NCBI GenBank assembly: GCA_026391775.1
Contig: JAPLDK010000007.1
Span: forward strand, 1,065-65,064
Origin: Bacteroidota bacterium
GTDB lineage: Bacteria; Bacteroidota; Bacteroidia; Bacteroidales; FEN-979
Reading direction: 5' to 3'
Length of the DNA stretch: 64,000 bases
Below, piece after piece: positions 30,704 to 48,699 of the stretch. Position 1 is the stretch's first letter. Each line of letters opens with the position of its first letter. Below the pieces are notes generated by a model, which saw only the letters and a program-made list of their open reading frames with translations, was not told the DNA's origin and ran no database searches. Made by a program: the position numbers and the translations under genes.

Positions 30704-31978
30704 TTATACAATATCGGTTACTTTTTTCCCGAAGCTGATATCAGCAAGGTCGCGGCGGCGGGGTGTATATGTACCGTCGGCCAATTCCCTTGCCATAACC
30801 CTGTTAATGAGGTTGAACATTTTCATGGTCTGGGGTTCGTCCTTATAGAAGGTATCCCAGGCATAATGATACAGTTCGGTGAGCCTTTCAGGGCTCATAT
30901 GTTTGGGATAGTACACAACTTTACCTGCATTATAATGATTCCAATCCTTATCAAAGATCCGGTTTTGTTTCAACAGGTCGCTGTATGCTTTTGTATGAGG
31001 AAAAGGCGCCAATACAGTGAATTCGGCAAGGTCCAGGTCGATCTCCAGGAGAAAATCGATAAGTCGTTTTATATCATCTTCGGTTTGGTTATCCAGGCCC
31101 AGGAGTATAGTGCCTTCAACTGCAATACCGTAATCATGATACTGTTTGATGCGGTTACGGATATAATCCGATGTGTCAAACACTGCCTGGTAAACATACC
31201 AGGCACCTGCCTGGGCAGCAAGGTCCAGTACTTCATTCTTGTCTTCAATGGTATGGCTTACCCATTTCTTTTTAAGAGGGATCATTGCCCTGAAAAGCTT
31301 CTTTTCCCATTCCGTATCAAGAGCCAGTGAATTGTCAACGATGAATAGGCGGTTGTTATCCATCTGCGAAAGTTCCTCAACTACACGGTCAATTGGGCGT
31401 GGGCGAAAACCTCGGCCGCCGAGATATCTTACGGCGCAGGGGTAACAGTCATAAATACATCCCCGCGAGGCATGGAACAGGTCAACCATCCTGAAACCTT
31501 TATGATAATAAAGGTCTTTTTTCAGGATGTCCCTGTTTGCCGGACCGATCAGATTCATATCAGGGGGCTTGCTGAGGTAGTTATAGATCTTCTTAAGATC
31601 ATTCTTCCTGAAGTCTTCAAAAACCAGTTCAAGGCGGCCTTCTACTTCGCCAAGGAAGACTGAATCGGCATGAAGCATAGTCTCTTCGGCATGAAGCATA
31701 GTTGAAATACCTCCGAAAATAACCTTCTTGCCCAATGAACGGTACTGGTCCGCAATTTCCCAGCCACGTTTCACCTGGGTGGTCAGCATCATCGAGATGC
31801 CCACAAAGTCAGCAGAATCATCTATTATGAGTTCTTCGACGTTCTCATCGGTAAAATCGATTTCTATGCCTTCAGGCACTTCCGCAGCCATTACTACGGG
31901 TCCATGAGGAGGAAGGTAAAAGATTGTTTGTCCTTCCAGTTTTTCCCAACGGGGATATATTAGTTTAAACTTCATCAT
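30704..31978 (-). CDS. Cobalamin-binding-domain radical SAM protein (class B-like)
   Basis: 424 aa. N-terminal B12-binding-like Rossmann segment (FVGISMMLTTQ...VIFGGI). CX3CX2C cluster motif FHASRGCIYDCYPCAVR. Confidence 0.8.
   Translation of the reverse strand: MMKFKLIYPRWEKLEGQTIFYLPPHGPVVMAAEVPEGIEIDFTDENVEELIIDDSADFVGISMMLTTQVKRGWEIADQYRSLGKKVIFGGISTMLHAEETMLHADSVFLGEVEGRLELVFEDFRKNDLKKIYNYLSKPPDMNLIGPANRDILKKDLYYHKGFRMVDLFHASRGCIYDCYPCAVRYLGGRGFRPRPIDRVVEELSQMDNNRLFIVDNSLALDTEWEKKLFRAMIPLKKKWVSHTIEDKNEVLDLAAQAGAWYVYQAVFDTSDYIRNRIKQYHDYGIAVEGTILLGLDNQTEDDIKRLIDFLLEIDLDLAEFTVLAPFPHTKAYSDLLKQNRIFDKDWNHYNAGKVVYYPKHMSPERLTELYHYAWDTFYKDEPQTMKMFNLINRVMARELADGTYTPRRRDLADISFGKKVTDIV
31665..31702. 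repeat. In-frame 21-bp tandem duplication inside the rSAM gene
   Basis: tcggcatgaagcatagt occurs at 31665-31681 and again at 31686-31702, giving a 21-nt period. It encodes TMLHAEE-TMLHAD in GGISTMLHAEETMLHADSVFLGE. Confidence 0.9.
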
Positions 31979-32045
31979 TTTTGGTTTAGTCCTTACTCAT
32001 CATGCAGAATCACTTCAAAGCATGACTCAACCGGTTCTTTCCGGT

Positions 32046-33752
32046 TTAATTAATTTTCAATTCCGTATTGCACTCGGCAATCCGCCGGATAATTTTTTGT
32101 TTTTCCTGCCATCTCGGCACTTCACACCTCAAAGCCCGATAATAACATGATCTGGCTTCAGCAGGTTTTTTCCGGGCGTTGTAATATTCCGCAGCCAGGA
32201 ACCAGGATTCATAGAATTCCGGATTCGTATGTGTAAAAGCAGAAATAAAAGAACATTCATTGGACAGTACCCTGTCATTCTTTATACAATCATGAAGGAT
32301 TCTCTTCATAGCCCTGAACTCAATAAAAGCTCTGTATCCGGCTGATTTCAGGAAGATGTCGGGTGGTATCTCTACCTCCTTCACTTCTATTTCCACACTC
32401 TGGTCTGAGCCTGCAAAATTATGAAAAATTTTTTTCAGGTCGAAGCATTTATAAGCACCCAGTTGCCATGGACCTGTAGAAACCCAGACAAGCCTTTCGG
32501 CAGGCCTGAAAATAATGGAGTGATGAGCAATAAGCTGGTTCATCGCTTTTTCATTTCCCATACCGATATCCCGGCCGTTTAAACCGGCCCGGTCTCTAAG
32601 TATCCAGGCTGCTTTTTCCACATTCAATGGTGATTGCCTGATGATATCTTCCTGTAGACGTTGGTATCTGTACATTGATGCATTGTCCCTGATATTTTCT
32701 TTATTCACAGGGTCCCTGGCAAACTCTGCAGATTGAAAATGATTTGCACATAGAATTGTGTTTCCCTTAGGTTCAAGTATGGCGGTTATAAAAGGTGATT
32801 TTTCAATCACAACTGCATGCCTGTCCTTTGCGGAGCCAATGAGAAGGGATTCGGAAACGAATGTGTGACGTTTCTCGGCAATGGCATATGCCTCGTAAAT
32901 TGTTGAGGCATATTGCAGTATCTCTCTCGCCAGTAGAGAGATTGGTGTACGGGCCGATAATGGGATTTTAGACCGCGCGGCATTTATTGTCACAGTAAGG
33001 CCTTCTTCATTCATGCCTGAGACAGCGCCTATCATACTTCCCCAGGTGACCATCATGAAGGCATGGCCGGTGTCGGGCTGCTCAAAGCAGATGATCTTAT
33101 TCCTGGCAAATTCATCCCCCATATAGAAATCAAAGTTCCTTCCCAAAATCAGGTTGCCATCGGCACTTGAATTACCCCAGGCCCCAAATGAAGTGCAGCC
33201 CACCAAACTAAGCTGCTCCAGCGCATGGCCAATATCATGCGCCGAATGATAGTTAAGCATCCTCTGGTAATTTGTGCCGATATAGGCAAAATCATCACTG
33301 GCTGAATAACTTATTCCATAGATCTCCTGCTTATATTCCAGTGGAATATACTTATCGAGATCCCTGTTGAACCAGTAAATAAAGTATTTCAGGAAACGGA
33401 GATAAAAATCGGAAGGGATCATTTTCCTTATCTGACTTATAAAAGCTTTTTCCTGCTCATATATCAAAGCTTTCGCAAGTTTCCCGTTTGCAAGGCCACG
33501 TTCATATGGGCTTCCTTTAAGGTACATAAGCCAAAGGCCTGAAGTGTCTTTTCTGAGCCAGGATTGCCCGCAGCGTGTGAAATCTTTGGAAATAACTGAA
33601 ACTTCTGCCGTGTCGGCAGAACGGTCGGCTATTACAGGTGGGTTGATATTAATGGATATCCTGAACCATGCCCACAAACTGAGCAGGATTGCTGCCATGA
33701 TGAACAATGCAAGCCAGACCCTGTTTTGCTTGCGGTTTTCCTTATTCTGCAT
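32046..33752 (-). CDS. Peptidase C45 / acyl-CoA:6-aminopenicillanic acid acyltransferase-like Ntn enzyme with C-terminal TPR-like region
   Basis: N-terminal membrane anchor. The putative Ntn nucleophile context LVGCTSFGAWGNSSADGNLILGRNFDF is characteristic of the C45/AAT family. The helical C-terminus (YYNARKKPAEARSCYYRAL) is TPR-like. Start chosen at the ATG at 33752. The ORF-track start at 33797 would overlap the upstream gene by 56 nt. Confidence 0.65.
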   Translation of the reverse strand: MQNKENRKQNRVWLALFIMAAILLSLWAWFRISININPPVIADRSADTAEVSVISKDFTRCGQSWLRKDTSGLWLMYLKGSPYERGLANGKLAKALIYEQEKAFISQIRKMIPSDFYLRFLKYFIYWFNRDLDKYIPLEYKQEIYGISYSASDDFAYIGTNYQRMLNYHSAHDIGHALEQLSLVGCTSFGAWGNSSADGNLILGRNFDFYMGDEFARNKIICFEQPDTGHAFMMVTWGSMIGAVSGMNEEGLTVTINAARSKIPLSARTPISLLAREILQYASTIYEAYAIAEKRHTFVSESLLIGSAKDRHAVVIEKSPFITAILEPKGNTILCANHFQSAEFARDPVNKENIRDNASMYRYQRLQEDIIRQSPLNVEKAAWILRDRAGLNGRDIGMGNEKAMNQLIAHHSIIFRPAERLVWVSTGPWQLGAYKCFDLKKIFHNFAGSDQSVEIEVKEVEIPPDIFLKSAGYRAFIEFRAMKRILHDCIKNDRVLSNECSFISAFTHTNPEFYESWFLAAEYYNARKKPAEARSCYYRALRCEVPRWQEKQKIIRRIAECNTELKIN

Positions 33753-35241
33753 CACGGATTTTATTAAACAAGTATTCCAGTCCAAGTATTTCAGCACAGG
33801 TCATGATTGCGCCTATGGTAACACCGGGGGCCCCATGCATATTCAGGTTTTGTCCTGTAAAATAAAAACCAGGTATTTTGGTATGTGGCAAAATCATTGT
33901 TTTAAGGTAGTTCCCCGATTCCTTCCGTATGCCGTACATGGAACCTTCCGGGGTACCTGTAAAATCTCTCCAGGTGAGGGGAGTTGAAATTTCCACAGAG
34001 TTTATTGAAGAATTTATGTCCGGGAATTTTCGTTCGACCAGCTGTAGGAGTTTCCCTGCATACCTGGTCTTGAGTTCCATGTAATCCTGGCCCCGCCTGG
34101 AGGATACAGTGCCTTCCCATCGTTTAACTTCGTCAAAACGCATATATGAAAGAATGCAGAGGGCGGAGGTATGATCGCCATGTCTCGCTGATGAAGGTGT
34201 ATACAGGAAATACATCCCGGGCCATTGTTCATCTTTACATTCCTGTCCGTTCCAGACATCCCGGGAAGAATGATAATATATATTATAATCCAGGTAAGGG
34301 AAACTTCCGGGTTTAAGGCCAAGATACAATCCGAAGGACGAAACCGAATTTTCCATACTCATGATCCTTGACTGGAATGATCGTTTAACCAGGTATGGCT
34401 CAAGCAGGCCGATAGCAGTTTGGGGATGGATTCCGGCGATAATCCGGCCTGCAACAAACAATTCATCTCCTGAAGTCTCAACCTGGAATTTGTTTTTCAA
34501 TGATGAAATTTTTCTGACTTCCTTTCTAATCATAACCTTGCCTCCTGCAGAAGTTATGGCAGAAATGAGATGATCGGCGATTTGCTTGCTGCCATGCCTC
34601 AACCTCCAGGCACTGCTGATAAAGGAATGATTGATGAGGGCATACTGATGCCAGGGGGTGGATACCTTCCGCCCTGCATACAGGAAATTATTGCCTGAAA
34701 GCACTTCCAGTAGTTTGAGGTTTTCCGTACCTTTTCCTGCCATTGTATACAGAAAATCCCAGGCATTGGTTCTCATCCAGGTGTTTTTGGTATGCCTGTC
34801 GGTGAGCTGAAAATTGTATAAAGGAAAAGCCGAAACTGTTTCTTTCAGAGCCGAAACATACTGCCTGAGAAAATCGCGGGATGCAGGGAAATGGGCTGCC
34901 AGATTTTCAATAAAATTGTTGAAACCCTGGGCGAGTGGAAAATCCCTGCCATCCAGTGAGATCAGATCATAACAGTCCTTATTCAGCGGTTCCAGAGCCA
35001 GGGACTGCGACAGGCCGAAGTATTTCCAGTAAGAGTGAAGTGTCTGTCCCGGCATCATACTACCAATATAATGGATCCCAGTGTCAAAAGAATTCTCACC
35101 TCTCTGAAAACTCTGCAGACAACCACCTGGAACCGAATGCTTTTCAAGTATGCATACACTGAATCCTTCCTTGCTTAGAATATAACCGCAAAGCAAACTG
35201 CCTAAGCCTGATCCAATGATAATGACGTCATAGCGGTTCAT
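33742..35241 (-). CDS. FAD-dependent oxidoreductase, phytoene desaturase (CrtI)-like
   Basis: 499 aa. Dinucleotide fold YDVIIIGSGLGSLLCGYILSKEGFSVCILEKH and C-terminal FYFTGQNLNMHGAPGVTIGA. Has an ATGA overlap with the upstream gene. Confidence 0.75.
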   Translation of the reverse strand: MNRYDVIIIGSGLGSLLCGYILSKEGFSVCILEKHSVPGGCLQSFQRGENSFDTGIHYIGSMMPGQTLHSYWKYFGLSQSLALEPLNKDCYDLISLDGRDFPLAQGFNNFIENLAAHFPASRDFLRQYVSALKETVSAFPLYNFQLTDRHTKNTWMRTNAWDFLYTMAGKGTENLKLLEVLSGNNFLYAGRKVSTPWHQYALINHSFISSAWRLRHGSKQIADHLISAITSAGGKVMIRKEVRKISSLKNKFQVETSGDELFVAGRIIAGIHPQTAIGLLEPYLVKRSFQSRIMSMENSVSSFGLYLGLKPGSFPYLDYNIYYHSSRDVWNGQECKDEQWPGMYFLYTPSSARHGDHTSALCILSYMRFDEVKRWEGTVSSRRGQDYMELKTRYAGKLLQLVERKFPDINSSINSVEISTPLTWRDFTGTPEGSMYGIRKESGNYLKTMILPHTKIPGFYFTGQNLNMHGAPGVTIGAIMTCAEILGLEYLFNKIRDAE

Positions 35242-38200
35242 GTATGCTGTATTGTTTTAAGATTTCTCTTTAGCAGATAATACGTGTTCGAACTGTATGT
35301 CTTTGAGCCTATTATCTCTAGGCTGAAGCCAGTCTGTGATGCAATTTGTCTGATCCTGTCAGTGGATATAAAGTGAAGCCTGCTTGTTTCGCCATAGGTC
35401 TTATTAAACTTCATTCCGGTGGAAAACAGTTCGGTAAGTCTTGAACGCGAATGTCCTTCTTCACGGTTTGCGTCAGCATCCCTGATGATGACAATCCCGT
35501 CCTGCTTCAGGTTTGTCATACATTTCATCAGGAGTCGTTCCTGGTCCGCCGGAAGAATATAATGCAGGACATCGCTTAGTATGATGCAGTCTTTGGGAGA
35601 AAATTCATACAACCTGATATCGGTTGCCTTGAAAGTTACCTGGAGTGATTTGATAAACCCGCCTTCAGCCACCCTGATCTTATCATCATCATAATCAATA
35701 CCGGTAATCATTCTTTCTGCGGATGTGAGGGCAAGCATATAGCTTATGAACCCGTATCCGCAACCCATATCCAGTATTTCGCCCTGGCGGGGCACATATT
35801 CATTTAGCAGAGAATAGTTCTTCTCAAGCATCAGTTTGATCTTAAGGTACCATTCCAGTACCGGACCCTTATAAATATAATTAAGGACAAGTTTGCGGCG
35901 GTAAAATGAAGCGTTGCCCTCTTCGGCCCGGAAACGGTCATATTCCTTTATATACCATCTCCTGGTTAACCTGGTCCTTTCTTGATAACTTGTCCCGAAC
36001 GAGCTGTCATCCGGCTTAATCCTTGGATATATCCTTTGCCTGAACATATTAGGCCTTCCCCAGAATGCACCATGCGCCAGAAATTCCCCGGTGCCAAACA
36101 TCATCACCGGCAGGATGTCCAGTTGTAGCTTCTCCGCTATATAAAAGGCCCCCCTGTGAAATCTCTGAATCTTATGGTCGGTCGAACGGTGAGCCTCCGG
36201 AAAGATAAGGAGGGAATACCCCTCGCTGACTTTCTTTTTAAGCTTTTCCATAATGTAATCCAATCCCTTATCAACATTGTAGAAATTTGCGAGCCTGGCT
36301 ATGGGCCCAAACACAGGGGAATTATAAACCCAGGTATTGGTAAGTATAATCATCTTAGGATATAGCCGGAGCATTGCCGGTGTTTCAACAAGTGACTGAT
36401 GGTTACTGATGATTAGTGCAGGTTTTTTAAAATCTTCGCCAATTGGGTTATACAACCTGCGGTTTGGAAAGGCAAGGAAAATATACAGCCTTGAAAGGCT
36501 GCAGAACAAATTGTGGAAGATGTTCTCCTTCCAACTGCGTTTCAGAGGGAGCAGGAAATACATCAGCCAGCCGGTAACAGTAAGGATTATAGCGATCAGA
36601 ACGATATTTCCCCAGGTGATGATGGTTTTGACAAAAATCCTCGCGGTTACGGGGAATTTGTTTCTCCTGAGCCTTTCGGTCATAAACCAGCCTACAACCA
36701 AGGGCTGTATGCTGAAAGTGATCAGGACAAGCACGAGGATTCCAAACACTGAGATCAGTGCGATCGAATGAAGGGCCGGATGACGGGCCGTAAATAAAGC
36801 GGCAACACCGAACAACGTTGTGGACGAGGATAACATGATGGATATTCTGTATGATGAAATGTTCTGTGACCTGTACTTGTAGTCCTGCATCAGGCCCCTC
36901 ATCATCAGGATGCTGTAATCGACCCCAAGTCCGAAAATAAAGGATGAGATGATAATGTTGAAAATATTGAACCTTATACCTGTAACGCCCATAAAACCAA
37001 GTGTAATGATCCAGGAGAGGTACATCGGTATGGCTGTGAACAGGGCTAATTCAATCCGGCCGAAAGAGAACCATAAAAGCAGGCTTACAAAGAGCATGGA
37101 AAGCAGAACAAGCCTGTCGAAATCTTTCCTTACACCTTCAACAAAACGATCTGTGAGTTTCTGCCTGTCGAAGACCACAACACCCGTCATGCTGCCGAAT
37201 TCTTCATAAATTTTCACAACATTCGCAGGTTTCACCTTTGCAATGGATGTAATCATGGACATCCCCTGGTTGAAATTTATCCATTCAGAAAACAATGCAT
37301 TTTCAAACCTGGATTTAAGCTTAGGGTCCAGGAGTTCATATGATTTTCCGACCATTTTGTCAAACCCATTGAAAGCCCCGGGAGTAAACCCTGTTTGTGA
37401 CGCAGCCCTATCGATTTTAACGATCATATTACGTGATTTTTCAGCAGGGAAAGCCGCTTCCCATTTGTTAATACGTAACCCGGAAAGAGAATCGGACAGT
37501 AGAAGAGACCTGATCCCTGAAACTCCTGCAACAGTCCGATTCTGAATCATGGCGTCAAGGCGCAACTGTATCCTTTCGTTCAACCTGAGAGCTTCTTCCC
37601 GGCAAGCTCCCGTCGCAACAATGTAAATATTTTTAAATTTTCCGTTGGATAAGCTGTCCAGTTCGTCCCCTGCTTTGCGCAGGCCGGATTCCATATAATT
37701 CAGGGTATTCATATCCGTTTCAAAACCGGCTTTCCTGAAGAAAAACAAGCTGGCAAAGCAGAGCAGGCCTAAAATAACGATGAGGATATAATTTCTTTCA
37801 AATTGCAGGCTGCCGATACGGTCTATGAATGTCGAAAATGCAGAGGGACGTTTTTCACGGAAGCGTTCCGAGAACATCTGTGGAAGGAAGACCAGTGCAA
37901 ACAGTGCCGCTCCAGTAACACTAACCGAGGCAAACCATCCAAGGTCATGAAGTACGCTGGATTTAAGAAAAACCAGGCACAGAAAGGCTCCTGCAGAAGT
38001 AAGTGCACAAACTACAATGCTTTGTGACATTTCGCGCAGGGTTTGCCTTACATCCCCGCATCTTCTGTACTGGTTGATCAGGTACAATGAATAATCAATG
38101 ATCAGCCCCAGGATCACTGAACCGATGCCCAGGGCAATAGCCGATACAGAGCCTTTAACAAAAGCAAGGACAGCAATTGCCAGCCCTCCTCCGAAAACTG

Positions 38201-39143: not shown

Positions 39144-39150
39144 TCAGGGA

Positions 39151-41744: not shown

Positions 41745-43165
41745 AAAAGTTACTTCTGGTAAATACAAACGCAGAAAAATCACCTTATCCGATTCCTCCG
41801 CTTGGGATTTGTTTGATTGCCTCTTTTCTGAATGGCCATTATGATGTCAAAATTTATGACGGGATGTTCGATGAAGGCAGAAGCCTGGGATCGGTGATCC
41901 ACAGTTATAATCCTGATTTTATTGGTTTCAGCATACGCAATGTAGATGAGGTGGTGCCGGAGCGATCCACTTTCTTCATTCAGGGCGTTTACCGGAACTT
42001 TATTGAGCCGGCGCGTAAATTCACCACCGCTCCTTTTATTCTGGGTGGAAGCGGGTATACGATCTTTCCGAGGGAAATATTGGATTATACCGGTGCTGAT
42101 TACGGGATTGCCGGAGAGGGGGAGGAACCCCTGCTAATCCTTCTTCAGAAACTTGAAAGGGGAGAAACTGTTACGCGAATACCTAATGTATATGCAAGAA
42201 AGGGAGAGGGGCCGCGAAAATTGAGAGCAGAAGGTGACTACAACCTAAGGCCTTACTCTGAGATAGATCTTAAACTGGATTTTAATCCTTATACCGACCG
42301 GGGGGTATACAGTATACAAACTAAAAGGGGTTGTGCGCTTCGATGCCTCTATTGTTCCTATCCACTTCTGGAAGGCAGGCAATACCGCCTGAGAGCTCCA
42401 CAGGCCATAGTTAATGAAATCGAAGAGGCTTCTGAAAGACTTGGGGAGAGTGTGACCTTCGAATTCGTAGATTCAACCTTCAACGAGCCCAAGGGCCATG
42501 CAGAGGAGATATGCAAGGAACTTATCCGCAGAAAAATCAGGGTCAGGCTGAGGACCATGGGTGTAAATCCCAGGAATACGAGTAAGGAATTGTTCGGTCT
42601 TATGACAGAAGCCGGTTTTGCCCAGATAGACGTGACCCCTGATTCTGCTTCAGTAACTGTTATCAAGAATCTTCTTAAGGGGTTTACCATAGATGACATC
42701 CGCAGAACAGCAATGCTGATAAGGGAGTTCAACTTTCCGTCTATGTGGTTTTTCCTGTTTGGAGGGCCGGGTGAAAACCGCGGCACTTTTAATGAAACTC
42801 TTAATTTTATTGATAATTTTATTAATCCCAACGACCTGGTATATATGTCGGGAGGCCTGAGGATCTACCCCGGAACCCCTCTGTTTGATGTTGCATTAAA
42901 GGAAGGTTTTATCTCTGATTCCGACAACCTTTTTAAGCCTTCGGTTTTTTATTTTTCGAAAGAATCCCCTCAGGCTGTACTCAGAGACTGGATAACAGAG
43001 GCCTGCCGGGACCGGCTGAACTGCCTGCCTTCATATGAAACAAACGCACCTGCCGAAATGCTTCGTGAAGCGGTTTCCACTCGTAGCAATCAGGGCCTTA
43101 CCGAACCTATGTTCAGGACACTATTACGCCTGAGAAGAGAGTGGAAAATTTCCGGAAAGTTGTGA
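41741..43165 (+). CDS. Cobalamin-binding-domain radical SAM protein
   Basis: 474 aa. N-terminus MKKLLLVNTN...PPLGICLIASFL...FIGFSIRN. CX3CX2C motif IQTKRGCALRCLYCSYP. Has an ATGA overlap with the preceding rSAM. Confidence 0.8.
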   Translation: MKKLLLVNTNAEKSPYPIPPLGICLIASFLNGHYDVKIYDGMFDEGRSLGSVIHSYNPDFIGFSIRNVDEVVPERSTFFIQGVYRNFIEPARKFTTAPFILGGSGYTIFPREILDYTGADYGIAGEGEEPLLILLQKLERGETVTRIPNVYARKGEGPRKLRAEGDYNLRPYSEIDLKLDFNPYTDRGVYSIQTKRGCALRCLYCSYPLLEGRQYRLRAPQAIVNEIEEASERLGESVTFEFVDSTFNEPKGHAEEICKELIRRKIRVRLRTMGVNPRNTSKELFGLMTEAGFAQIDVTPDSASVTVIKNLLKGFTIDDIRRTAMLIREFNFPSMWFFLFGGPGENRGTFNETLNFIDNFINPNDLVYMSGGLRIYPGTPLFDVALKEGFISDSDNLFKPSVFYFSKESPQAVLRDWITEACRDRLNCLPSYETNAPAEMLREAVSTRSNQGLTEPMFRTLLRLRREWKISGKL

Positions 43166-43170
43166 AAATT

Positions 43171-43201: not shown

Positions 43202-44122
43202 TCACGTCGTCACATTATCACGGATTAAGGTATTCCAGTTCACAAACTTCCCTGCACCGGGAATAAACTTAGAATTCTTCCGTAATGCCTGTGAGGGGCC
43301 GCATTCCGTGAAAAGGCGTATGCCTGAGCTGAACATCTGCACCTGGGTTGCCAGCCAGTTAAAGGGGTTATGGATATTATTCACGACCTCCATTCTTGCT
43401 CTTTCCGCATTAATTATCAGGTTCTGGCTGAGCGCTGAGATGATTGGGATTTCCGGAGCCCGGACTTCTGCAGTATAGACTGTTTCTGATAATTTTATTG
43501 CCGCTTCCGACAACAGGTTTGTATGATAGGGCACAGTCACTCCCAATGACCTTGCATGAAGGGCCCCTTCTTCCCTGGCTTTCAATAGGAAAACATTAAT
43601 GTGAAAACTATTGCCTGCCACAGTAAAAGAATAATCGCTGTTGCGGTTGACGATCATCAGATTCAGATTGTGCTGTCCTGCTATATCCCTGATGTCTTTT
43701 TCGCTCAGGCCTATCACACCCCCCATGCCGTACTGGCCGTGCGGGAGGACTTTCCTGATTGCTTCATAGGCTTTCTGAATAAAAAGCAATCCGGTTTCAA
43801 ATGAAATAGAGCCGGCTGTGTAAAGGGAAGCATAGATTCCCATGCTGTAACCTGCGGTCATGGCCGGCTTAACCCCTGATTTCATAAGGATCCCGGCACA
43901 ACTGCAGCCATAGATGTATGAAATGTACTGGTTTCGAAGTTCATCCTGCAGCATAGGATTTGATTCCGGATGAAATGAAAGCAATTCTTTGTCAACTGAA
44001 TCAGCCGCCCTTGAAAGATAAGCCTGAAAAACTTTCGAAAAACCAAGAACCCCGTGGGAAGGGTCATCCCGGTGGTCACTAATAAAAGCAGGAAAAACGA
44101 AAGCAATTGTATCTTCTGCCAA
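43202..44122 (-). CDS. Divergent FabD-like acyltransferase (malonyl-CoA:ACP transacylase family)
   Basis: 306 aa. Nucleophile elbow GYSMGIYASL (GHSxG with H to Y), VNRNSDYSFTVAG and VPYHTNLL. The N-terminal FPAFISD replaces FPGQGSQ. Confidence 0.65.
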   Translation of the reverse strand: MAEDTIAFVFPAFISDHRDDPSHGVLGFSKVFQAYLSRAADSVDKELLSFHPESNPMLQDELRNQYISYIYGCSCAGILMKSGVKPAMTAGYSMGIYASLYTAGSISFETGLLFIQKAYEAIRKVLPHGQYGMGGVIGLSEKDIRDIAGQHNLNLMIVNRNSDYSFTVAGNSFHINVFLLKAREEGALHARSLGVTVPYHTNLLSEAAIKLSETVYTAEVRAPEIPIISALSQNLIINAERARMEVVNNIHNPFNWLATQVQMFSSGIRLFTECGPSQALRKNSKFIPGAGKFVNWNTLIRDNVTT

Positions 44123-44130: not shown

Positions 44131-44439
44131 TTATTTATCCAGTTCCAGCAGCCGGTTTTCGTGTTCGATGATCAGCATCTGCATCTCAATCAACTGGCCT
44201 ATGGTATCAACAGGATGTTTAACAGCATATTTGCCGATGGTTTTCAGTTCAATATCGAGATTGTATTTCTTTTTGAAGATCTCTATCAGTTCGAGGAACA
44301 TCAGCGAATCCCCATCCAGGTCCTTGATAATATTTGTGTTATCGGTGATCTGTGATTTATCTGCCTCACATTCTTCAGCAAAGAACGCAAAGACAATCTC
44401 TCTGACTTCATTCCGGGTGCTCTCTGTGATTTTTGCCAT
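44131..44439 (-). CDS. Acyl carrier protein (with C-terminal extension)
   Basis: Phosphopantetheine site DLDGDSLMFLELIEIF. Start set at the ATG at 44439 (MAKITESTRNEV), which leaves a 25-nt gap after the KS. The ORF-track start overlaps the KS. Confidence 0.75.
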   Translation of the reverse strand: MAKITESTRNEVREIVFAFFAEECEADKSQITDNTNIIKDLDGDSLMFLELIEIFKKKYNLDIELKTIGKYAVKHPVDTIGQLIEMQMLIIEHENRLLELDK

Positions 44440-44464
44440 TTCGAGTGTTTTTTTTGCAAAAGTA

Positions 44465-45688
44465 TTAATTTCCGGGATATTTTCTAAATACCAGGGTGGC
44501 ATTATGGCCTCCAAAGCCGAAGGAATTTGAAAGTGCAACATGTATTTCCTTCTGCCTACTCACGTTGGGGACATAATCCAGGTCAAGGTCGGGATCGGGA
44601 TCAGAATAATTAATTGTTGGAGTAAGGATGTTGTTTTTCAGGCTCAGAATTGTGATGATCCCTTCAATAGCTCCTGCAGCCCCAATTGTGTGGCCAATCA
44701 TTGATTTGGATGAAGACACAGGGATATGATAAGCCTGCTCGCCAAAAACTTTTTTAATTGCCATGGTCTCATACCGGTCGTTGAGTTCGGTCGAGGTTCC
44801 ATGAGCATTGAGGTAACCTACTTCGCTTTTATCAACACCTGCGTTCTGTAATGCTTTTTCAATTGTAGCTGCCATTCCTGCACCGTCTTTCATAGGGGCC
44901 ATAATGTTATATCCCTCGCTGGTCAGGGCATAGCCTGCCAGCTCGCTATGAATGATTGCATTTCTCATGAGAGCATGTTCTTCCGATTCAAGGATTACCA
45001 CTCCGGCCCCTTCACCTATGACAAACCCATCCCGTTTTGATGTAAAAGGCCTGCTTGCAGCTTCGGGTGGGTCATTGGCAACTGACAATGCATATAAGGC
45101 GTTAAAACCGTTTATTTCCTCAGGGTTGATGATGGAATCGGCTCCTCCGGCGATGACAACATCAACCATATTGTTTTTAATCATCTGCATGCCAATTGCA
45201 ATGGCATAGGCTGAAGATGCACAGGCTGTATTGATTGCAAAATTTGGGCCGAGAAGTTGGTATTCAAGTGATATCCATGCAGGCATGGAGTTGGTCATGC
45301 TTTTGAATACCGTGTTCTGGGGGGAAGTGTCTTTTTCTACGCTGGAATTCCCTGTATTTACCACTCCCATAATGACAGCACAACGTGTCTTATCCTCTTT
45401 CTCAAAATCCAGTCCGGAAAGGGTAACAGCCTGTTTTGCTGCGACCAGACACATCCTGGTAACCCTGGTCATTTGCCCGGCTGCACGCTTTTTGACGAGG
45501 CACCTTGAATATTCTTCAAATTCATGAGGTACTTCAGCGGCAATCTGAGTTGCACAGGAAGAGGCGTTAAAAAGGGATATCTTTTTTACACCGCTTTTGC
45601 CTTCAACAAGGTTTTTCCAGAACGTTTCTAAATCATAACCAAGGGATGATACAATGCCCATCCCACTAATAACTACTTTTCCAGCCAT
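44465..45688 (-). CDS. Beta-ketoacyl-ACP synthase (FabF/KAS II-like)
   Basis: 407 aa. Cys-His-His triad contexts INTACASSAYAIAIG, LNAHGTSTELND and SMIGHTIGAAGAIE. Confidence 0.9.
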   Translation of the reverse strand: MAGKVVISGMGIVSSLGYDLETFWKNLVEGKSGVKKISLFNASSCATQIAAEVPHEFEEYSRCLVKKRAAGQMTRVTRMCLVAAKQAVTLSGLDFEKEDKTRCAVIMGVVNTGNSSVEKDTSPQNTVFKSMTNSMPAWISLEYQLLGPNFAINTACASSAYAIAIGMQMIKNNMVDVVIAGGADSIINPEEINGFNALYALSVANDPPEAASRPFTSKRDGFVIGEGAGVVILESEEHALMRNAIIHSELAGYALTSEGYNIMAPMKDGAGMAATIEKALQNAGVDKSEVGYLNAHGTSTELNDRYETMAIKKVFGEQAYHIPVSSSKSMIGHTIGAAGAIEGIITILSLKNNILTPTINYSDPDPDLDLDYVPNVSRQKEIHVALSNSFGFGGHNATLVFRKYPGN

Positions 45689-45697
45689 CCTCAGAGA

Positions 45698-46120
45698 TTA
45701 ATTATTCAGTGCCTTGGCCCAGTTTTTAATCAGGTCAACCTCAGCCTGGGTGGGAATATTGCCAGGGTTATTCTTACGCCATTTTCCCGGTGGCATTGAC
45801 CCTTTTGAAACCTTTTTGCTGATGTCATTTGCTTTGTCGGCCTGTCTTTTAGTGTCGTAAGTATTCCAACTGGAAAAGTTGACACGCATTTTAGCCATGC
45901 TGTTTCCGTCTGCACCATGACAATCCATGCAGGCTTTTTGTATGATTTTCGCCACTGAATCCGGAAGTTCGGGGTTCCCTTCGGCATATTTTACTGAACC
46001 GGATGCGTTTACAGGCCTGAAAGCCAGGACCAGAAAGAACACCACTGCAAATGATATCCATAGAAATGCACTTGTTTTTCTCATAAATTTCATGTTAATG
46101 CTTAAAACAAAAATACGCAC
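45698..46120 (-). CDS. Small secreted haem-binding-domain protein (single CXXCH)
   Basis: 140 aa. Has a signal/anchor (FLWISFAVVFFLVLAF). CMDCHG is followed by VNFSSWNTY, as in the 'haem-binding domain' family of small c-type proteins. The start may be the ATG at 46093. Confidence 0.6.
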   Translation of the reverse strand: MRIFVLSINMKFMRKTSAFLWISFAVVFFLVLAFRPVNASGSVKYAEGNPELPDSVAKIIQKACMDCHGADGNSMAKMRVNFSSWNTYDTKRQADKANDISKKVSKGSMPPGKWRKNNPGNIPTQAEVDLIKNWAKALNN

Positions 46121-46122
46121 AA

Positions 46123-48699
46123 TTATTCAAAGGGGCCTAATTCTGTTCCAAAATATTCTTTCAATGCCTCATTAAGTTCATCAATGGTTAGGCCCGAATG
46201 AGTGATAAACCTCCGGGCTGCATTTTTATATGTGAACTCCAAATGATTTCTTAATTCTTCGATTTTCTCAGGTACAGCTGCCGCTGGATTTCTTTCGGTT
46301 GCATTTCCGGAATAATCATAAAAGCCACGGCCCGACTTCCTGCCAAGATGACCTTCGGAAATCAGTTTTTTAAGTTTGCTGATGAGAGGAGTATAGTATT
46401 CGGCATGGGGGTATTTGACCGTATAATTTGTTATGCTCCTTAGCATGGTATCAAGGCCTACATGGTCAAAGAACTCAAAGACACCGGCAGGGAAGAGCGT
46501 TCCCTTCACGGCCTGGTCAATTTCGCTGCATGTTGCCTGGCCCTGATCGACAATACGGTAGGCCTCATTCTGCACATCGAGGAAAATACGGTTGAGAATA
46601 AAGCCCTCCTCTTCGGTCAACAGAATAAATCTGCGTTTGATTGTATCGAGAAAAACAATCAGCTTTTCAACGGTATTACCGGAAGTGCCCGGCCCCCTGA
46701 TAATCTCCACAATGTTTACCAGGTTTACAGGATAAAAGAAATGAAGTCCTGCAAATTTTTTTTCCCTTGCTTTAGATGGGCAAAGGACCGAAGGATTGAT
46801 CGAAGATGAGTTGGTAACAAGGATTGCATCCGGATGTAATATTGTATCTGCTTGAGCGAGAACCTTCTTCTTGAGCTCCTCGTCCTCGGTGATGGCTTCT
46901 ATAACAAGCGTACAGCCGGACAAAGCTGATATCTCAGGAGAAATTACAGTTAGTTTAAGCTTATCGTATTTCGCTTCTGATATTATACCGTTCTCAAGGA
47001 GTCTTCTGGTCTTTTTTTCAATGTTCTTGCGGATCTTCGCCAAATCGGCCTGGGAACTGACGACCCACCGGATATCAAGGCCTGATTCAATAAAATAATG
47101 AGCAAGGTTTGTTCCCATCTTACCTTCCCCGATAATACCAACTGTTGCTGCTTTCATAAGTTGTTGATTCCACTTCCCCATATCTTGCGCTATCACCAGT
47201 TTGCGGTATTCATCCATCCTGAGGTGATGCTGGCGTATATGCCTGTTGTAACCCAGCATGGACAGGATAAAGCCCAGGCCTTTGTCAATGGCGATCTGTT
47301 TCGCACGGATAAGATTGAACATGAAGATGAACAGGGCTTTGCGGTCCTTATCGGATGTGAGAATAAACTCTTTGAAAGTTATCCAGGAAAGACGGGCCTT
47401 AATCCAAACGGGGATATTGCCTCCGGGCCTCGTAAAAGCCCCGTTGCTGAAAAGAGCTTCAGCTTTCTTTCTGATAACAGGGAAAGAATACAAGCGGGTG
47501 ATTGTTTCCATGTATTTGTCGAAGATCTCGATCTGAGACATGTTCATGTATTGAATAGTAGGGAAGTGGCCTACTCCCATTTCCGGATCGCAGTTCATGA
47601 GCCTTCCTTCCGCCTTCAGTTTCTTATTGGTTTCGGTGCCAGGAGGAGCATTTAACAGGTGAAGGTTTACATTCGGAAGATTATGTTCCAGGGTAAAGTT
47701 GAAAATCCGCTCAAACTCATCCGCAGTATCATGATCAAATCCGACTACAAAACTTGCATTAATCTGTATACCCGCTGCATGTATTTTACTTATGGCTTCC
47801 TTGTAAATAGACCCACCCCGGTTGTGATGTTTCCGTGTTTCGTCAAGACTGTCACGATTCAAAGATTCAAACCCAACCAGGATGTTAAAACAGCCGGCAT
47901 CCGCCATAAGTTGTAAAAGTTCGTCATCGGTAGCCACATCCAGGCTGCACATGCAGCCCCATGAAATGTCCAGGGGTTTGATAGCCTTCATCAGTTCCTT
48001 GGCATAGCGTTTATTAATAGTCAGGTTGTCATCAACAAAAAAGAAATATTTTGAAGGAGCGGCTTTGATTTCATCCACCACATTAGCAATCTCGCGGTAC
48101 CTCATTTTACGGCCGAAATTCTTGGAGACAAGGCAGAAATCACAGTTAAACGGGCAGCCTCTTGAAACTTGTATTGCCACCTGGAAAATCCTCTTCATGT
48201 TAACCAGGTCCCAGCGGGGTGGTTTTTGATGGTGGTATTCGGTGTATGTTGTGGATTCGTATACCTGTTTAAGTTCTCCTTTCTCAAAATCGGCAAGGCA
48301 TTGTTCCCATTTACCTTCAGCTTCACCAACAACAACTGCGTCTCCGTGTTTCAGGGCCTCATCGATAACAAAGGAGGCATATGGCCCTCCGTAGACCACT
48401 TTAGCCCCCATGGAGCGGTAATGGTCTCCAAGTTCGAAAGCCCGCTTCGCTGTGGCTGCCAGGGTCGTGATGCCAACAATATCGGGCCGGATACCTGAAG
48501 GAATATCCTCTATCTCTTCATCATAAATCGAGATCCTGTAATGAGTGGGGGTAAGCGAAGCAATTGTCGGGAGTGCGAGGGGCACCATGAAACGTTTCTT
48601 CCCGAACATTCTTGCCATTTCAGAATGAGCAGGATAGTTGATATACTTCTGTCTAGGGCCTAATAGAAAAAGATTATATTTTGGTTTCTCTTCAGACAT
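46123..48699 (-). CDS. Fusion: cobalamin-binding-domain radical SAM + 3-hydroxyacyl-CoA dehydrogenase (Hbd/HADH-type)
   Basis: 858 aa. The N-terminal half has IVGITTLAATA...VVYGGPYAS (B12-like) and QVSRGCPFNCDFCLVS (CX3CX2C). From about nt 47160 downward there is VGIIGEGKMGTNLAHYF (NAD Rossmann) and GLHFFYPVNLVNIVEIIRG (the HFFNP-type HADH signature), plus the C-terminal HADH helical domain. Confidence 0.8.
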   Translation of the reverse strand: MSEEKPKYNLFLLGPRQKYINYPAHSEMARMFGKKRFMVPLALPTIASLTPTHYRISIYDEEIEDIPSGIRPDIVGITTLAATAKRAFELGDHYRSMGAKVVYGGPYASFVIDEALKHGDAVVVGEAEGKWEQCLADFEKGELKQVYESTTYTEYHHQKPPRWDLVNMKRIFQVAIQVSRGCPFNCDFCLVSKNFGRKMRYREIANVVDEIKAAPSKYFFFVDDNLTINKRYAKELMKAIKPLDISWGCMCSLDVATDDELLQLMADAGCFNILVGFESLNRDSLDETRKHHNRGGSIYKEAISKIHAAGIQINASFVVGFDHDTADEFERIFNFTLEHNLPNVNLHLLNAPPGTETNKKLKAEGRLMNCDPEMGVGHFPTIQYMNMSQIEIFDKYMETITRLYSFPVIRKKAEALFSNGAFTRPGGNIPVWIKARLSWITFKEFILTSDKDRKALFIFMFNLIRAKQIAIDKGLGFILSMLGYNRHIRQHHLRMDEYRKLVIAQDMGKWNQQLMKAATVGIIGEGKMGTNLAHYFIESGLDIRWVVSSQADLAKIRKNIEKKTRRLLENGIISEAKYDKLKLTVISPEISALSGCTLVIEAITEDEELKKKVLAQADTILHPDAILVTNSSSINPSVLCPSKAREKKFAGLHFFYPVNLVNIVEIIRGPGTSGNTVEKLIVFLDTIKRRFILLTEEEGFILNRIFLDVQNEAYRIVDQGQATCSEIDQAVKGTLFPAGVFEFFDHVGLDTMLRSITNYTVKYPHAEYYTPLISKLKKLISEGHLGRKSGRGFYDYSGNATERNPAAAVPEKIEELRNHLEFTYKNAARRFITHSGLTIDELNEALKEYFGTELGPFE

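What the first reader, a model, noticed from the sequence alone, without database searches (positions are those of the whole stretch)
30704..48699. Four cobalamin-binding-domain radical SAM enzymes embedded in a type II PKS/FAS cluster
Each of the four proteins combines an N-terminal B12-binding-like Rossmann segment with a CX3CX2C motif:
- 30704..31978: CIYDCYPC
- 40404..41744: CPYKCTFC
- 41741..43165: CALRCLYC
- 46123..48699: CPFNCDFC

Established knowledge: this class includes C-methyltransferases acting on unactivated carbons. It also includes oxygen-independent cyclases or oxidases such as BchE, and ring-rearranging enzymes. I know of no such enzyme as part of the APE or flexirubin pathways.

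Four copies next to KS/ACP machinery suggest repeated radical C-methylation or C-C bond-forming tailoring of an ACP-bound or lipid-bound chain. That would be expected in an anaerobe that cannot use oxygenases.

The combination of B12-rSAM, CrtI-like desaturase, KS/ACP and SAM methyltransferase also loosely recalls gene sets proposed, but never proven, for ladderane lipid synthesis in anammox bacteria. I treat that only as an analogy.
Basis: partly seen in the sequence, partly recalled or inferred. Interest (0 to 1): 0.8.

Follow-up and report, generated by a model that had tools for sequence, protein, structure and literature searches.

The report
Radical SAM enzymes inside flexirubin cluster
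A pigment-lipid (flexirubin-type) gene cluster from an uncultured Bacteroidales bacterium found mostly in oxygen-poor habitats carries four conserved radical SAM enzymes with vitamin-B12-type domains that the known versions from aerobic bacteria lack; their chemistry is unknown, and one is a close relative of the enzyme long suspected in ladderane lipid synthesis.

Summary
All four ORFs exist at the stated coordinates. Each has the stated CX3CX2C motif, which is kept in every orthologue examined (87/87, 123/123, 97/97, 83/83).

Three corrections:
- 46123-48699 is a fusion of a radical SAM (rSAM) domain with a 3-hydroxyacyl-CoA dehydrogenase (HCDH).
- B12 binding is well supported only for rS2 and rS3. 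rS1 and rS4 score marginally, and their nearest solved structure is AprD4, which binds no cobalamin.
- Close relatives carry a fifth rSAM just beyond the window's right end.

The "type II PKS/FAS cluster" is a flexirubin-type cluster. FlxY, DarG, DarH, LolA2 and LolB2 pass NCBIfam cut-offs, and the gene order matches Chitinophaga flxN-flxY. The CrtI-like, C45 and methyltransferase genes are ordinary flx genes, not ladderane signs.

The rSAMs lie in two insertions absent from the published aerobic clusters. Linkage is conserved. rS2/rS3 travel with ACP, DarG/DarH, two enoyl-CoA hydratases, an StlD-like ketosynthase, FabF and MCAT, also in other phyla. rS1 pairs with an unknown 128-aa protein.

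rS3 scores 308 bits against TIGR04072, the "ladderane" rSAM model (cut-off 360). True members occupy equivalent places in related clusters.

The chemistry is inferred, not shown: oxygen-independent methylation or ring chemistry on the resorcinol-like half. I rate it a new variant of a known kind.

The parts
30704..31978 (-). rS1: rSAM with a B12-binding-like N-domain, 424 aa, only 3 Cys (the triad)
   Evidence: At least 578 genome hits, 73-97% identical among the 80 kept. Nearest solved structure is AprD4, weakly.
30271..30657 (-). Unknown 128-aa partner of rS1
   Evidence: Follows rS1 in 77/80 loci. No Pfam or NCBIfam hit. AlphaFold model pLDDT 84.6 with no fold neighbour in the PDB.
40404..41744 (+). 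rS2: class-B rSAM, 446 aa
   Evidence: Pfam B12-binding 52.9, Radical_SAM 46.8. Best NCBIfam hits HpnR 133 and BchE 117, far below cut-offs. Nearest PDB entries are the glutamine C-methylase 9ccb and TokK. Found beside rS3 in 73/80 loci.
41741..43165 (+). rS3: class-B rSAM, 474 aa, sister group of TIGR04072; overlaps rS2 by 4 nt
   Evidence: TIGR04072 307.9 bits against a 360 cut-off. AlphaFold model pLDDT 85.8; best fold match TsrM, TM 0.79-0.80.
46123..48699 (-). rS4: rSAM domain (about residues 1-500) fused to 3-hydroxyacyl-CoA dehydrogenase (519-796)
   Evidence: Fused in at least 71 loci; the two halves are separate genes in others.
45698..46120 (-). Membrane-anchored or secreted single-haem protein (CMDCH motif)
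   Evidence: Pfam Haem_bd 50 bits; motif read; present in 51/80 rS3 loci.
44465..45688 (-). FabF-type elongating ketosynthase with Cys-His-His intact
   Evidence: TIGR03150 451.6 bits; sequence read.
43202..44122 (-). Malonyl-CoA:ACP transacylase-like acyltransferase (MCAT)
48717..49859 (-). Divergent StlD/DarB-family KSIII-like condensing enzyme
   Evidence: StlD/DarB family model 109 bits (cut-off 450); DarB model 84 bits (cut-off 550). Nearest PDB entry is StlD 5gk0, aligned over the full length, E 2e-12.
49856..51303 (-). Two crotonase-type enoyl-CoA hydratases
51318..51707 (-). YbgC/4HBT-type thioesterase; first gene of insertion A in the direction of transcription
20642..21958 (-). FlxY 4-coumarate-CoA ligase
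   Evidence: NCBIfam FlxY_rubin 709.5 bits, cut-off 520.
22735..23817 (-). Sulfotransferase
23830..25532 (-). ACP, DarH (BtrH-like acyltransferase) and DarG
   Evidence: DarH 325.8 bits (cut-off 300); DarG_fam 71.2 bits (cut-off 70); ACP.
25553..30250 (-). ABC-2 permease, O-methyltransferase, 796-aa outer-membrane protein
32046..35241 (-). C45 acyltransferase (FlxW-like) and CrtI-like FAD oxidoreductase (FlxV-like)
   Evidence: Matched by annotation and position to the published flexirubin gene tables.
35238..40341 (-). 1301-aa MMPL exporter-acyltransferase-methyltransferase fusion (FlxU-like) and GT2-DUF2062 glycosyltransferase (FlxT-like)
51710..54434 (-). ApeI/FabZ-like dehydratase (FlxS-like), LolB2, LolA2, polysaccharide deacetylase (FlxP-like)
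   Evidence: LolB2 90.6 bits (cut-off 60); LolA2 209 bits (cut-off 125).
54287..61393 (-). Polyene synthase part: CLF, KS, CLF, KS, ACP, unknown 233-aa protein, KS, thioesterase
   Evidence: The KSs keep the active-site Cys and the CLFs lack it.
61395..63959 (-). ABC-2 permease, ABC ATPase, and a second DarH-like gene (DUF4872) cut by the window end
   Evidence: The continuation was read in the relative L210.

Best explanation
The window holds most of a flexirubin-type gene cluster from an uncultured Bacteroidales bacterium. Flexirubins are aryl-polyene acids esterified to a dialkylresorcinol (DAR). The record titles of its relatives point mostly to anoxic habitats.

The four rSAMs are integral, vertically conserved parts of this lineage's version of the pathway. 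They sit in two insertions relative to the canonical aerobic cluster.

Insertion A lies between the flxS-like dehydratase and the flxT-like glycosyltransferase. It carries a thioesterase, two enoyl-CoA hydratases (ECH), an StlD/DarB-like ketosynthase, rS4 fused to a 3-hydroxyacyl-CoA dehydrogenase (HCDH), a haem protein, FabF, MCAT, and the rS2-rS3 pair.

Insertion B lies between flxW and flxY. It carries rS1 with its 128-aa partner, next to the DarG/DarH/ACP module.

Inferred mechanism for insertion A: the hydratases and the dehydrogenase interconvert enoyl, 3-hydroxy and 3-keto acyl thioesters. [quoted passage not shown]

Inferred roles of the rSAMs: they supply oxygen-independent C-H chemistry on these carrier-bound intermediates or on the ring product.
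- rS2 and rS3 are most likely cobalamin-dependent C-methyltransferases. Their nearest characterised relatives are QCMT, TokK and HpnR for rS2, and TsrM and BzaD for rS3.
- rS4 probably couples a radical step (dehydration, oxidation or aromatisation) to the NAD-dependent redox step of its fused domain. This is the logic of the AprD4/AprD3 pair.
- rS1 with its partner acts near the coumaroyl starter or the final coupling.

Shown: identity of the cluster, domain content, motif conservation, gene linkage, and absence of these genes from the sampled aerobic clusters. Inferred: substrates, reaction types and cobalamin use.
For: Cluster identity:
- FlxY, DarH, DarG, LolB2 and LolA2 pass NCBIfam cut-offs.
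- In the collinear relative L210, FlxB, two further DarG/DarH pairs and a near-threshold, locus-truncated FlxA tyrosine ammonia-lyase follow beyond the window end.
- Gene order matches flxN-flxY of C. pinensis and Fjoh_1075-1097 of F. johnsoniae.

The rSAMs are additions:
- The published gene tables contain no 'radical', 'B12' or 'cobalamin' entries.
- No rSAM homologue lies within 10 kb of the DAR ABC-transporter gene in Chryseobacterium, Flavobacteriales or Chitinophagaceae loci.
- No paper in the library pairs flexirubin with radical SAM.

Linkage:
- Among 80 rS3 loci, rS2 is present in 73, MCAT in 69, FabF in 57, rS4/HCDH in 52 and the StlD-like KS in 50.
- Partial to near-complete versions of the cassette persist in Spirochaetota, Thermodesulfobacteriota and Myxococcales MAGs, with rS2 but not rS3 in a Chlorobiota MAG.
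- rS1 is followed by the 128-aa protein in 77/80 loci, usually beside FlxW, FlxV, FlxY or DarG/DarH.
- rS4 is fused in at least 71 loci and split in others.

Chemistry leads:
- The window's StlD-like KS is nearest to StlD, and the hydratases are of the beta-oxidation type.
- No DarA was found, and the DarB model fails.
- The rS3 model matches TsrM over its full length. CysS, a class-B rSAM solved with pantetheine-bound substrates, is also among the matches.
Against: - No product, transcript or enzyme activity is known.
- NCBIfam scores against every characterised rSAM family are far below cut-off, so the reaction types are guesses from distant relatives.
- rS1 and rS4 may not bind cobalamin at all.
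- In rumen and horse-gut Bacteroidales, rS1 stands with only its partner, a hydrolase and a FlxY-like ligase, with no polyene genes nearby. It may therefore serve a more general role.
- Related clusters of the L167 type keep rS1, rS2 and a TIGR04072 protein but show no StlD-like KS, hydratases or rS4 within 21 kb. The link between the rSAMs and a cyclohexanedione route is therefore not universal.
- Canonical darA/darB could lie elsewhere in the genome; only about 10 kb past the window end was examined, and only in relatives.
- Absence from aerobic clusters rests on two published tables and six loci.
Confidence: 0.6

Rival explanations
1. The rSAM-bearing cassette (rS3/TIGR04072, FabF, MCAT, ACP) makes a different kind of lipid by radical C-C bond formation. 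The product would be cyclised, cross-linked or ladderane-like chains rather than a methylated or aromatised resorcinol half.
For: - rS3 scores 308 bits against TIGR04072, and true members (411-418 bits) occupy equivalent places in related clusters.
- The anammox candidate cluster also combines a B12-rSAM with FabF paralogues, an ACP and a phytoene-dehydrogenase-like gene (PMC10139942; PMC2649909).
- A review lists non-methylating class-B enzymes such as BchE, OxsB and HpnJ.
Against: - The CrtI-like, methyltransferase and deacetylase genes are standard flexirubin genes.
- The nearest characterised relatives of rS3 are methyltransferases acting on sp2 carbons (TsrM, BzaD).
- The role of the anammox cluster itself is unproven. 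Ladderane-type clusters occur in many phyla with no ladderanes reported.
- amxACP and amxFabZ were not sought here.
Confidence: 0.15
2. rS1 with its 128-aa partner is a self-contained, more general module, perhaps modifying an aryl-acid CoA thioester. It merely lies next to the flexirubin genes in this lineage and is not a tailoring enzyme of the pigment.
For: - It is very strongly conserved, with at least 578 genome hits and 73-97% identity among the 80 kept.
- In rumen and horse-gut Bacteroidales it occurs only with a hydrolase and a FlxY-like ligase, among housekeeping genes and beside methylmalonyl-CoA mutase.
Against: - In most of the 80 loci it lies beside FlxW, FlxV, DarG/DarH or FlxY homologues.
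- The ligase that stays with it is itself the flexirubin starter enzyme type.
Confidence: 0.15
3. Insertion A is an HMG-synthase-type beta-branching cassette (AT, decarboxylating KS, HMGS, ECH1, ECH2, ACP) that adds a methyl-type branch to the polyene.
For: The part list is superficially the same: MCAT-like AT, a FabF-like KS, a KSIII/HMGS-superfamily enzyme, two ECH genes and an ACP.
Against: - FabF keeps its active-site Cys instead of the Ser of decarboxylating KSs.
- The KSIII-like enzyme is nearest to StlD. Its HMGS models score only E 1e-7 to 2e-5.
- Both hydratases are nearest to beta-oxidation crotonases, with no PKS ECH1/ECH2 among the top matches.
Confidence: 0.03

Closest known systems
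Flexirubin and dialkylresorcinol clusters of Chitinophaga pinensis (flxA-Y, darA-J) and Flavobacterium johnsoniae (Fjoh_1075-1110)
   Same: - The gene order is shared: KS/CLF, deacetylase, LolA, LolB2, dehydratase, GT2, exporter-acyltransferase-methyltransferase, CrtI-like reductase, C45 and FlxY.
- ABC transporter, DarH, DarG and ACP are also shared.
- Five proteins pass the NCBIfam flexirubin models.
   Different: - It adds two insertions carrying four rSAMs, with a fifth beyond the window end in relatives.
- It has an StlD-like KS with hydratases and a dehydrogenase, and no recognisable DarA/DarB.
- It has a sulfotransferase and three DarG/DarH pairs.
- No halogenase was seen.
- The relatives' record titles point mostly to anoxic lakes, peat, sediment and guts.
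TIGR04072 'lipid biosynthesis B12-binding/radical SAM protein' and the candidate ladderane clusters of anammox bacteria and Desulfotalea
   Same: A class-B rSAM lies beside FabF-type synthases, an ACP and a phytoene-dehydrogenase-like gene. rS3 is the nearest neighbouring group to this model (308 bits).
   Different: - rS3 is below the 360-bit cut-off.
- The host is Bacteroidota.
- The surrounding genes are flexirubin genes.
- The function of TIGR04072 proteins is unknown even in anammox bacteria.
AprD4/AprD3 (radical SAM diol dehydratase plus NAD(P)H-dependent reductase, apramycin pathway)
   Same: - AprD4 is the nearest solved structure to the rSAM part of rS4 and to rS1.
- An rSAM works together with a nicotinamide-dependent dehydrogenase, here as one polypeptide.
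   Different: The similarity is low (55 bits and 24 bits). The substrate there is an aminoglycoside, the two enzymes are separate proteins, and the AprD4 model is far below its cut-off.
Characterised class-B rSAMs: TsrM, BzaD, QCMT/MgmA, TokK, HpnR, BchE, CysS
   Same: The architecture is shared: an N-terminal Rossmann-type domain and an rSAM barrel. The rS3 model overlays TsrM at TM 0.79-0.80. CysS was solved with pantetheinylated substrates (entry titles), which I take as precedent for carrier-bound substrates.
   Different: All equivalog scores are two- to twenty-fold below their cut-offs, so none of these functions can be transferred.

Membership tests
Class B (cobalamin-dependent) radical SAM enzymes | CX3CX2C cluster motif within a Radical_SAM domain | tested here: met
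   Present in all four and kept in 390/390 orthologue alignments. Pfam Radical_SAM is above cut-off for rS2-rS4; rS1 scores 27.6 against 29.5.
Class B (cobalamin-dependent) radical SAM enzymes | N-terminal B12-binding Rossmann domain (PF02310) | tested here: inconclusive
   Above cut-off for rS2 (52.9), rS3 (46.7) and rS1 (34.6, cut-off 32.1); below cut-off for rS4 (27.4). The rS3 model matches TsrM over its full length.
Class B (cobalamin-dependent) radical SAM enzymes | Actual binding and use of cobalamin | not testable with these tools
   AprD4 and ArsL have similar domains but bind no cobalamin (PMC12931638). AprD4 is the nearest solved structure to rS1 and rS4.
TIGR04072 (rSAM_ladder_B12, equivalog) | Score at or above the curated cut-off of 360 bits | tested here: not met
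   Window rS3 scores 307.9. Its orthologues in four phyla score 278-315. A paralogue in L167/L171 (416-418 bits) and in L210 (410.9 bits) passes.
Flexirubin-type biosynthetic cluster | FlxY ligase, DarG, DarH, LolA2 and LolB2 at equivalog or subfamily level, and collinearity with flx genes | tested here: met
   Scores against cut-offs: 709.5 (520), 71.2 (70), 325.8 (300), 209.1 (125) and 90.6 (60). Gene order compared with the published tables.
Flexirubin-type biosynthetic cluster | DarB cyclase and DarA aromatase | tested here: not met
   The DarB model scores 83.9 against a 550 cut-off for 48717-49859. No ORF resembled DarA: the unassigned ORFs had no NCBIfam hit, and those with hits matched other families. 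The L210 stretch where F. johnsoniae has darB/darA holds none. The rest of the genome was not examined.
Flexirubin-type biosynthetic cluster | Product is an aryl-polyene ester of a dialkylresorcinol (colour shift with alkali) | not testable with these tools
   Needs a culture or heterologous expression.
Anammox candidate ladderane cluster | amxACP, amxFabZ, two FabF paralogues, PDH-like gene and B12-rSAM in an anammox planctomycete | not tested
   Only the rSAM (sub-threshold) and generic FabF and CrtI-like genes were compared. The host is Bacteroidota by its nearest relatives.
HMGS beta-branching cassette | Decarboxylating KS (Cys to Ser), HMG synthase, ECH1/ECH2 | tested here: not met
   FabF keeps its Cys. 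The KSIII-like enzyme is nearest to StlD. The hydratases are nearest to crotonases.
HpnR, HpnJ, BchE, BzaD, TsrM, PhpK and AprD4 equivalogs | Score at or above each curated cut-off | tested here: not met
   Best scores against cut-offs: rS2-HpnR 133 (650), rS2-BchE 117 (481), rS3-BzaD 175 (450), rS3-TsrM 125 (500), rS4-HpnJ 107 (578), rS1-TIGR04013 56 (251).

The most novel reading that the evidence does not exclude
The rSAM set, including the TIGR04072-family members, is an oxygen-independent replacement for the DarA/DarB-type route to the resorcinol half of flexirubin-like pigments. TIGR04072 enzymes would then perform a general step of aryl-polyene/resorcinol-type lipid assembly.

That would imply that the anammox and Desulfotalea 'ladderane' clusters are relatives of flexirubin/aryl-polyene clusters. 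Those clusters also hold a deacetylase-like gene, inactive FabF paralogues, a phytoene-dehydrogenase-like gene and a methyltransferase. The unknown reaction of the ladderane-cluster rSAM could then be studied in Bacteroidales, which are far easier to handle than anammox bacteria.
Probability: 0.2. Interest if true: 0.8.

Novelty: new variant of a known kind. Interest (0 to 1): 0.62.

Why it matters
- Flexirubins are a classic marker pigment of aerobic Bacteroidota, and their pathway is only partly worked out.
- This variant carries four or five class-B-like rSAMs. It recurs in many species-level genomes, mostly MAGs labelled Bacteroidales, and rS1 alone matched at least 578 stretches.
- A 2026 review states that, apart from ladderanes and Jaw5, rSAM modification of ketoacyl-derived lipids is essentially unknown. 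Conserved rSAMs on a fatty-acid/polyketide-type pathway would widen that field.
- True TIGR04072 proteins, the family long suspected in ladderane synthesis, sit in the same clusters. The anammox enzyme has resisted heterologous expression and anammox bacteria lack genetics, so these clusters offer a possible route to learning what the family does.
- The fusion of an rSAM domain to a 3-hydroxyacyl-CoA dehydrogenase gives a concrete hint about substrate and mechanism that can be tested in vitro.

Tried and rejected
- Beta-branching (HMGS) cassette reading of insertion A: rejected.
- Extending the window rightwards by exact-protein look-up: failed. It returned only 1-kb contigs, or nothing. I used collinear relatives instead.
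- Fold of the 128-aa partner of rS1: the model is confident, but it has no PDB neighbour (best TM 0.30).
- Homologue search with rS3: the top 120 were all close Bacteroidota relatives with generic names, and it did not reach anammox sequences.
- Cobalamin riboswitch as a B12 clue: there is no Rfam hit in the window and no tRNA.
- Literature: no paper in the library pairs flexirubin with radical SAM, and none mentions TIGR04072. The searches for dialkylresorcinol or aryl polyene with radical SAM returned only unrelated papers or genome-mining surveys.
- The canonical DxHxxG cobalamin motif is absent from all four. To my knowledge this is usual for class B and not informative.
- Two family-scan calls failed on stop codons in the submitted ranges.
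- Not done: a proper phylogeny or similarity network against characterised class-B enzymes; a search for amxACP/amxFabZ-like features; structure models of rS1, rS2 and rS4.

Full report
**1. Observation**

The four ORFs are listed at exactly the coordinates given. Their translations carry the stated motifs: CIYDCYPC at residue 174, CPYKCTFC at 221, CALRCLYC at 198 and CPFNCDFC at 182.

Pfam finds a B12-binding domain followed by a Radical_SAM domain in each. The strength differs:
- rS2 (40404-41744) and rS3 (41741-43165) are clear.
- rS1 (30704-31978) is just above the B12-binding cut-off and just below the Radical_SAM cut-off.
- rS4 (46123-48699) is below the B12-binding cut-off.

Residues 519-796 are a 3-hydroxyacyl-CoA dehydrogenase (3HCDH_N 142 bits, 3HCDH 84 bits). 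It has a GxGxxG nucleotide-binding motif, and I read an HFFYPV...VEII stretch as the catalytic His/Glu region.

The Cys triad is kept in every orthologue of at least 40% identity in the fetched loci: 87/87, 123/123, 97/97 and 83/83. The four are distant paralogues. rS1 and the rSAM part of rS4 are about 28-30% identical.

**2. What the cluster is**

Genes from about 20.6 kb to the right end of the window form one cluster, almost all on the minus strand. Upstream lie unrelated genes such as UvrB, MutL and a rhomboid protease.

NCBIfam's flexirubin models pass their curated cut-offs for five proteins:
- FlxY 4-coumarate-CoA ligase: 709.5 bits, cut-off 520
- DarH acyltransferase: 325.8 bits, cut-off 300
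- DarG: 71.2 bits, cut-off 70
- LolA2: 209.1 bits, cut-off 125
- LolB2: 90.6 bits, cut-off 60

The gene order is that of the characterised flexirubin clusters of Chitinophaga pinensis and Flavobacterium johnsoniae (PMC3992019 supplement). It runs KS/CLF pairs, polysaccharide deacetylase (flxP), LolA (flxQ), flxR, dehydratase (flxS), GT2 (flxT), exporter-acyltransferase-methyltransferase (flxU), 'retinol reductase'/CrtI-like (flxV), C45 (flxW) and ligase (flxY). At the other end it runs KS, ACP, KS, thioesterase, ABC-2, ABC and a BtrH-like gene.

**3. Where the rSAMs sit**

Relative to the canonical order there are two insertions.

Insertion A (about 40404-51707) lies between the flxS-like and flxT-like genes. 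It contains:
- a thioesterase
- two crotonase-type hydratases
- an StlD/DarB-family condensing enzyme
- rS4::HCDH
- a single-haem protein
- FabF with Cys-His-His intact
- an MCAT-like acyltransferase
- the overlapping rS2-rS3 pair, on the opposite strand

Insertion B lies between flxW and flxY. It contains rS1, an unknown 128-aa protein, an outer-membrane protein, an O-methyltransferase, ABC-2, DarG, DarH, an ACP, a sulfotransferase and an unknown gene.

The published gene tables for the two aerobic clusters contain no rSAM, B12 or cobalamin entry. No rSAM homologue lies within 10 kb of the DAR transporter gene in three Chryseobacterium, one Flavobacteriales and two Chitinophagaceae loci. No paper in the searchable library pairs flexirubin with radical SAM.

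**4. Beyond the window**

Nine close, collinear relatives were compared. In them the cluster continues past the window's right end, read outward, with:
- the rest of the second DarH
- a DarG
- a third DarH and DarG
- a 137-aa unknown protein
- a 777-aa fusion of an LpxL-type acyltransferase with a true TIGR04072 rSAM (410.9 bits, cut-off 360)
- a KS
- FlxB (401.7 bits, cut-off 340)
- FlxA tyrosine ammonia-lyase, cut by the end of the locus

These scores come from L210. F. johnsoniae has darB and darA in the matching stretch; here none is seen. In the window the DarB model scores 84 bits against a cut-off of 550, and no ORF resembles DarA.

**5. Conservation**

The rS4 fusion is full length at 54-84% identity in about 25 Bacteroidales, Prolixibacteraceae and Draconibacterium MAGs, many from anoxic lake water, peat and sediment.

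Around 80 rS3 homologues, the other genes occur as follows:
- rS2: 73
- MCAT: 69
- GT2: 60
- FabF: 57
- rS4/HCDH: 52
- the haem protein: 51
- the StlD-like KS: 50

These counts are lower bounds because many contigs are short.

Outside Bacteroidota, two Spirochaetota MAGs, a Thermodesulfobacteriota MAG and a Myxococcales MAG keep rS3 beside ACP and DarH, and three of them also keep rS2. The fullest locus (L106) adds DarG, two hydratases, thioesterase, StlD-like KS, FabF, MCAT and HCDH. A Chlorobiota MAG keeps rS2 and most of the cassette but no rS3 within the locus. None of these shows polyene KS/CLF genes next to the rSAMs, except the Chlorobiota locus.

rS4 is fused in at least 71 loci. The dehydrogenase stands alone in 17 and the rSAM part alone in 4. 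This is the classic sign of functional coupling.

rS1 is the most conserved. It gave at least 578 genome hits, and the 80 kept were 72-97% identical. The 128-aa protein follows it in 77/80 loci, usually beside FlxW, FlxV, FlxY or DarG/DarH homologues. In rumen and horse-gut Bacteroidales, only rS1, its partner, a hydrolase and a FlxY-like ligase remain, among housekeeping genes.

**6. Family placement**

No characterised equivalog is approached:
- rS2 is nearest to HpnR and BchE among the NCBIfam models, and to the MCR glutamine C-methylase (9ccb) and TokK among solved structures.
- rS3 is nearest to TIGR04072 (307.9 bits), then BzaD and TsrM. Its AlphaFold model (pLDDT 85.8) overlays TsrM at TM 0.79-0.80 over the full length. 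AprD4, OxsB, MgmA and CysS follow.
- rS3 orthologues in other phyla score 278-315 bits against TIGR04072. A different paralogue in other Bacteroidales clusters scores 416-418 bits. So rS3 is a sister group, and true members share the same kind of cluster.
- rS1 and the rSAM part of rS4 are nearest to AprD4 among solved structures.
- A 2026 review states that AprD4 and ArsL have Rossmann-like domains but bind no cobalamin. It lists the 'ladderane' enzyme among class-B proteins of unknown reaction (PMC12931638).

**7. How it most likely works (inference)**

DarB-type enzymes join a beta-keto acyl thioester and an alpha,beta-unsaturated acyl thioester into a carboxy-cyclohexanedione. DarA then aromatises it (PMC6836626).

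Insertion A supplies an StlD-like enzyme together with the enzymes that interconvert enoyl, 3-hydroxy and 3-keto thioesters. These are two beta-oxidation-type hydratases and the dehydrogenase domain of rS4. It also supplies FabF and MCAT for chain building, and a thioesterase.

I therefore read it as a self-sufficient route to the non-polyene half of the pigment, in a lineage that shows no DarA/DarB in the cluster. The rSAMs would add oxygen-independent C-H chemistry:
- rS2 and rS3 most likely methylate.
- rS4 most likely performs a radical dehydration, oxidation or aromatisation coupled to its NAD-dependent domain.
- rS1 may act at the starter or coupling end.

CysS was solved with pantetheinylated substrates (entry titles). 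I take that as precedent for a class-B rSAM working on carrier-bound substrates.

None of this chemistry is shown. The L167-type clusters keep rS1, rS2 and TIGR04072 without the StlD-like module within 21 kb, which warns against over-reading it.

**8. Comparison and novelty**

The cluster is a member of the flexirubin kind by gene content and order. It fails the DarA/DarB feature and adds four to five rSAMs, a sulfotransferase and extra DarG/DarH pairs.

It is not a member of TIGR04072 (for rS3) or of any characterised rSAM family. Ladderane-type clusters in bacteria other than anammox bacteria are known from genome mining, with unknown function (PMC9902471). The anammox cluster itself remains unproven (PMC10139942 and PMC13459092).

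I found no description of rSAMs in flexirubin or aryl-polyene pathways.

Verdict: a real, conserved, undescribed variant of a known kind of cluster. The chemistry is open. There is a useful link to the ladderane-rSAM question.

Noticed in passing
window 45698-46120 (-): A 140-aa protein with an N-terminal membrane or signal segment and a single CMDCH haem-c motif (Pfam Haem_bd). It is conserved between FabF and rS4 in 51/80 rS3 loci. An extracytoplasmic haem protein inside a lipid cluster is unexplained.
   Followed up: partly
window 30271-30657 (-): A 128-aa protein always follows rS1 (77/80 loci). It has no Pfam or NCBIfam hit. Its AlphaFold model is confident (pLDDT 84.6) but has no PDB fold neighbour (best TM 0.30).
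   Followed up: yes
L210:3583-5916 (relative; about 4-6 kb beyond the window's right end): A 777-aa fusion of an LpxL-type lipid A acyltransferase (FlxE-like by annotation) with a true TIGR04072 B12-rSAM (410.9 bits, cut-off 360). This is a fifth rSAM of the cluster, seen in nine collinear relatives.
   Followed up: partly
window 24125-25532 and 63468-63959; L210:6295-9230: Close relatives carry three DarG-DarH (BtrH-like acyltransferase) pairs per cluster. The window holds one full pair and the C-terminal part of a second DarH.
   Followed up: partly
L197-L200 (rumen and horse-gut Bacteroidales MAGs), around position 10001; neighbours scanned in L197 only: Only rS1, the 128-aa partner, an alpha/beta hydrolase and a FlxY-like ligase are kept. 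In L197 they lie next to methylmalonyl-CoA mutase and housekeeping genes, with no polyene or DAR genes within 10 kb.
   Followed up: partly
window 22735-23817 (-): A sulfotransferase lies inside the cluster, next to the ACP and DarH. It recurs in related loci (32/80 rS1 loci), so the product may carry a sulfate ester, unlike known flexirubins.
   Followed up: no
L222:7816-8973 (Proteobacteria MAG): An aryl-polyene-like locus (LolA, exporter-acyltransferase, dehydratase, thioesterase, KS, ABC) holds a distant rS2-like rSAM (23% identity, E 3e-16).
   Followed up: no
window 35238-39143 (-): A 1301-aa single ORF combines an MMPL/RND-type exporter, a glycerolipid acyltransferase and a SAM methyltransferase domain. 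The architecture is the same as FlxU of C. pinensis.
   Followed up: partly
window 1-20600: Unrelated genes: GT2, an O-antigen-ligase-like protein, a LysM protein, an outer-membrane efflux protein, a sugar transferase with a receiver domain, UvrB, an endonuclease/exonuclease/phosphatase-family protein, a rhomboid protease and MutL. The whole window has no Rfam hit and no tRNA.
   Followed up: partly
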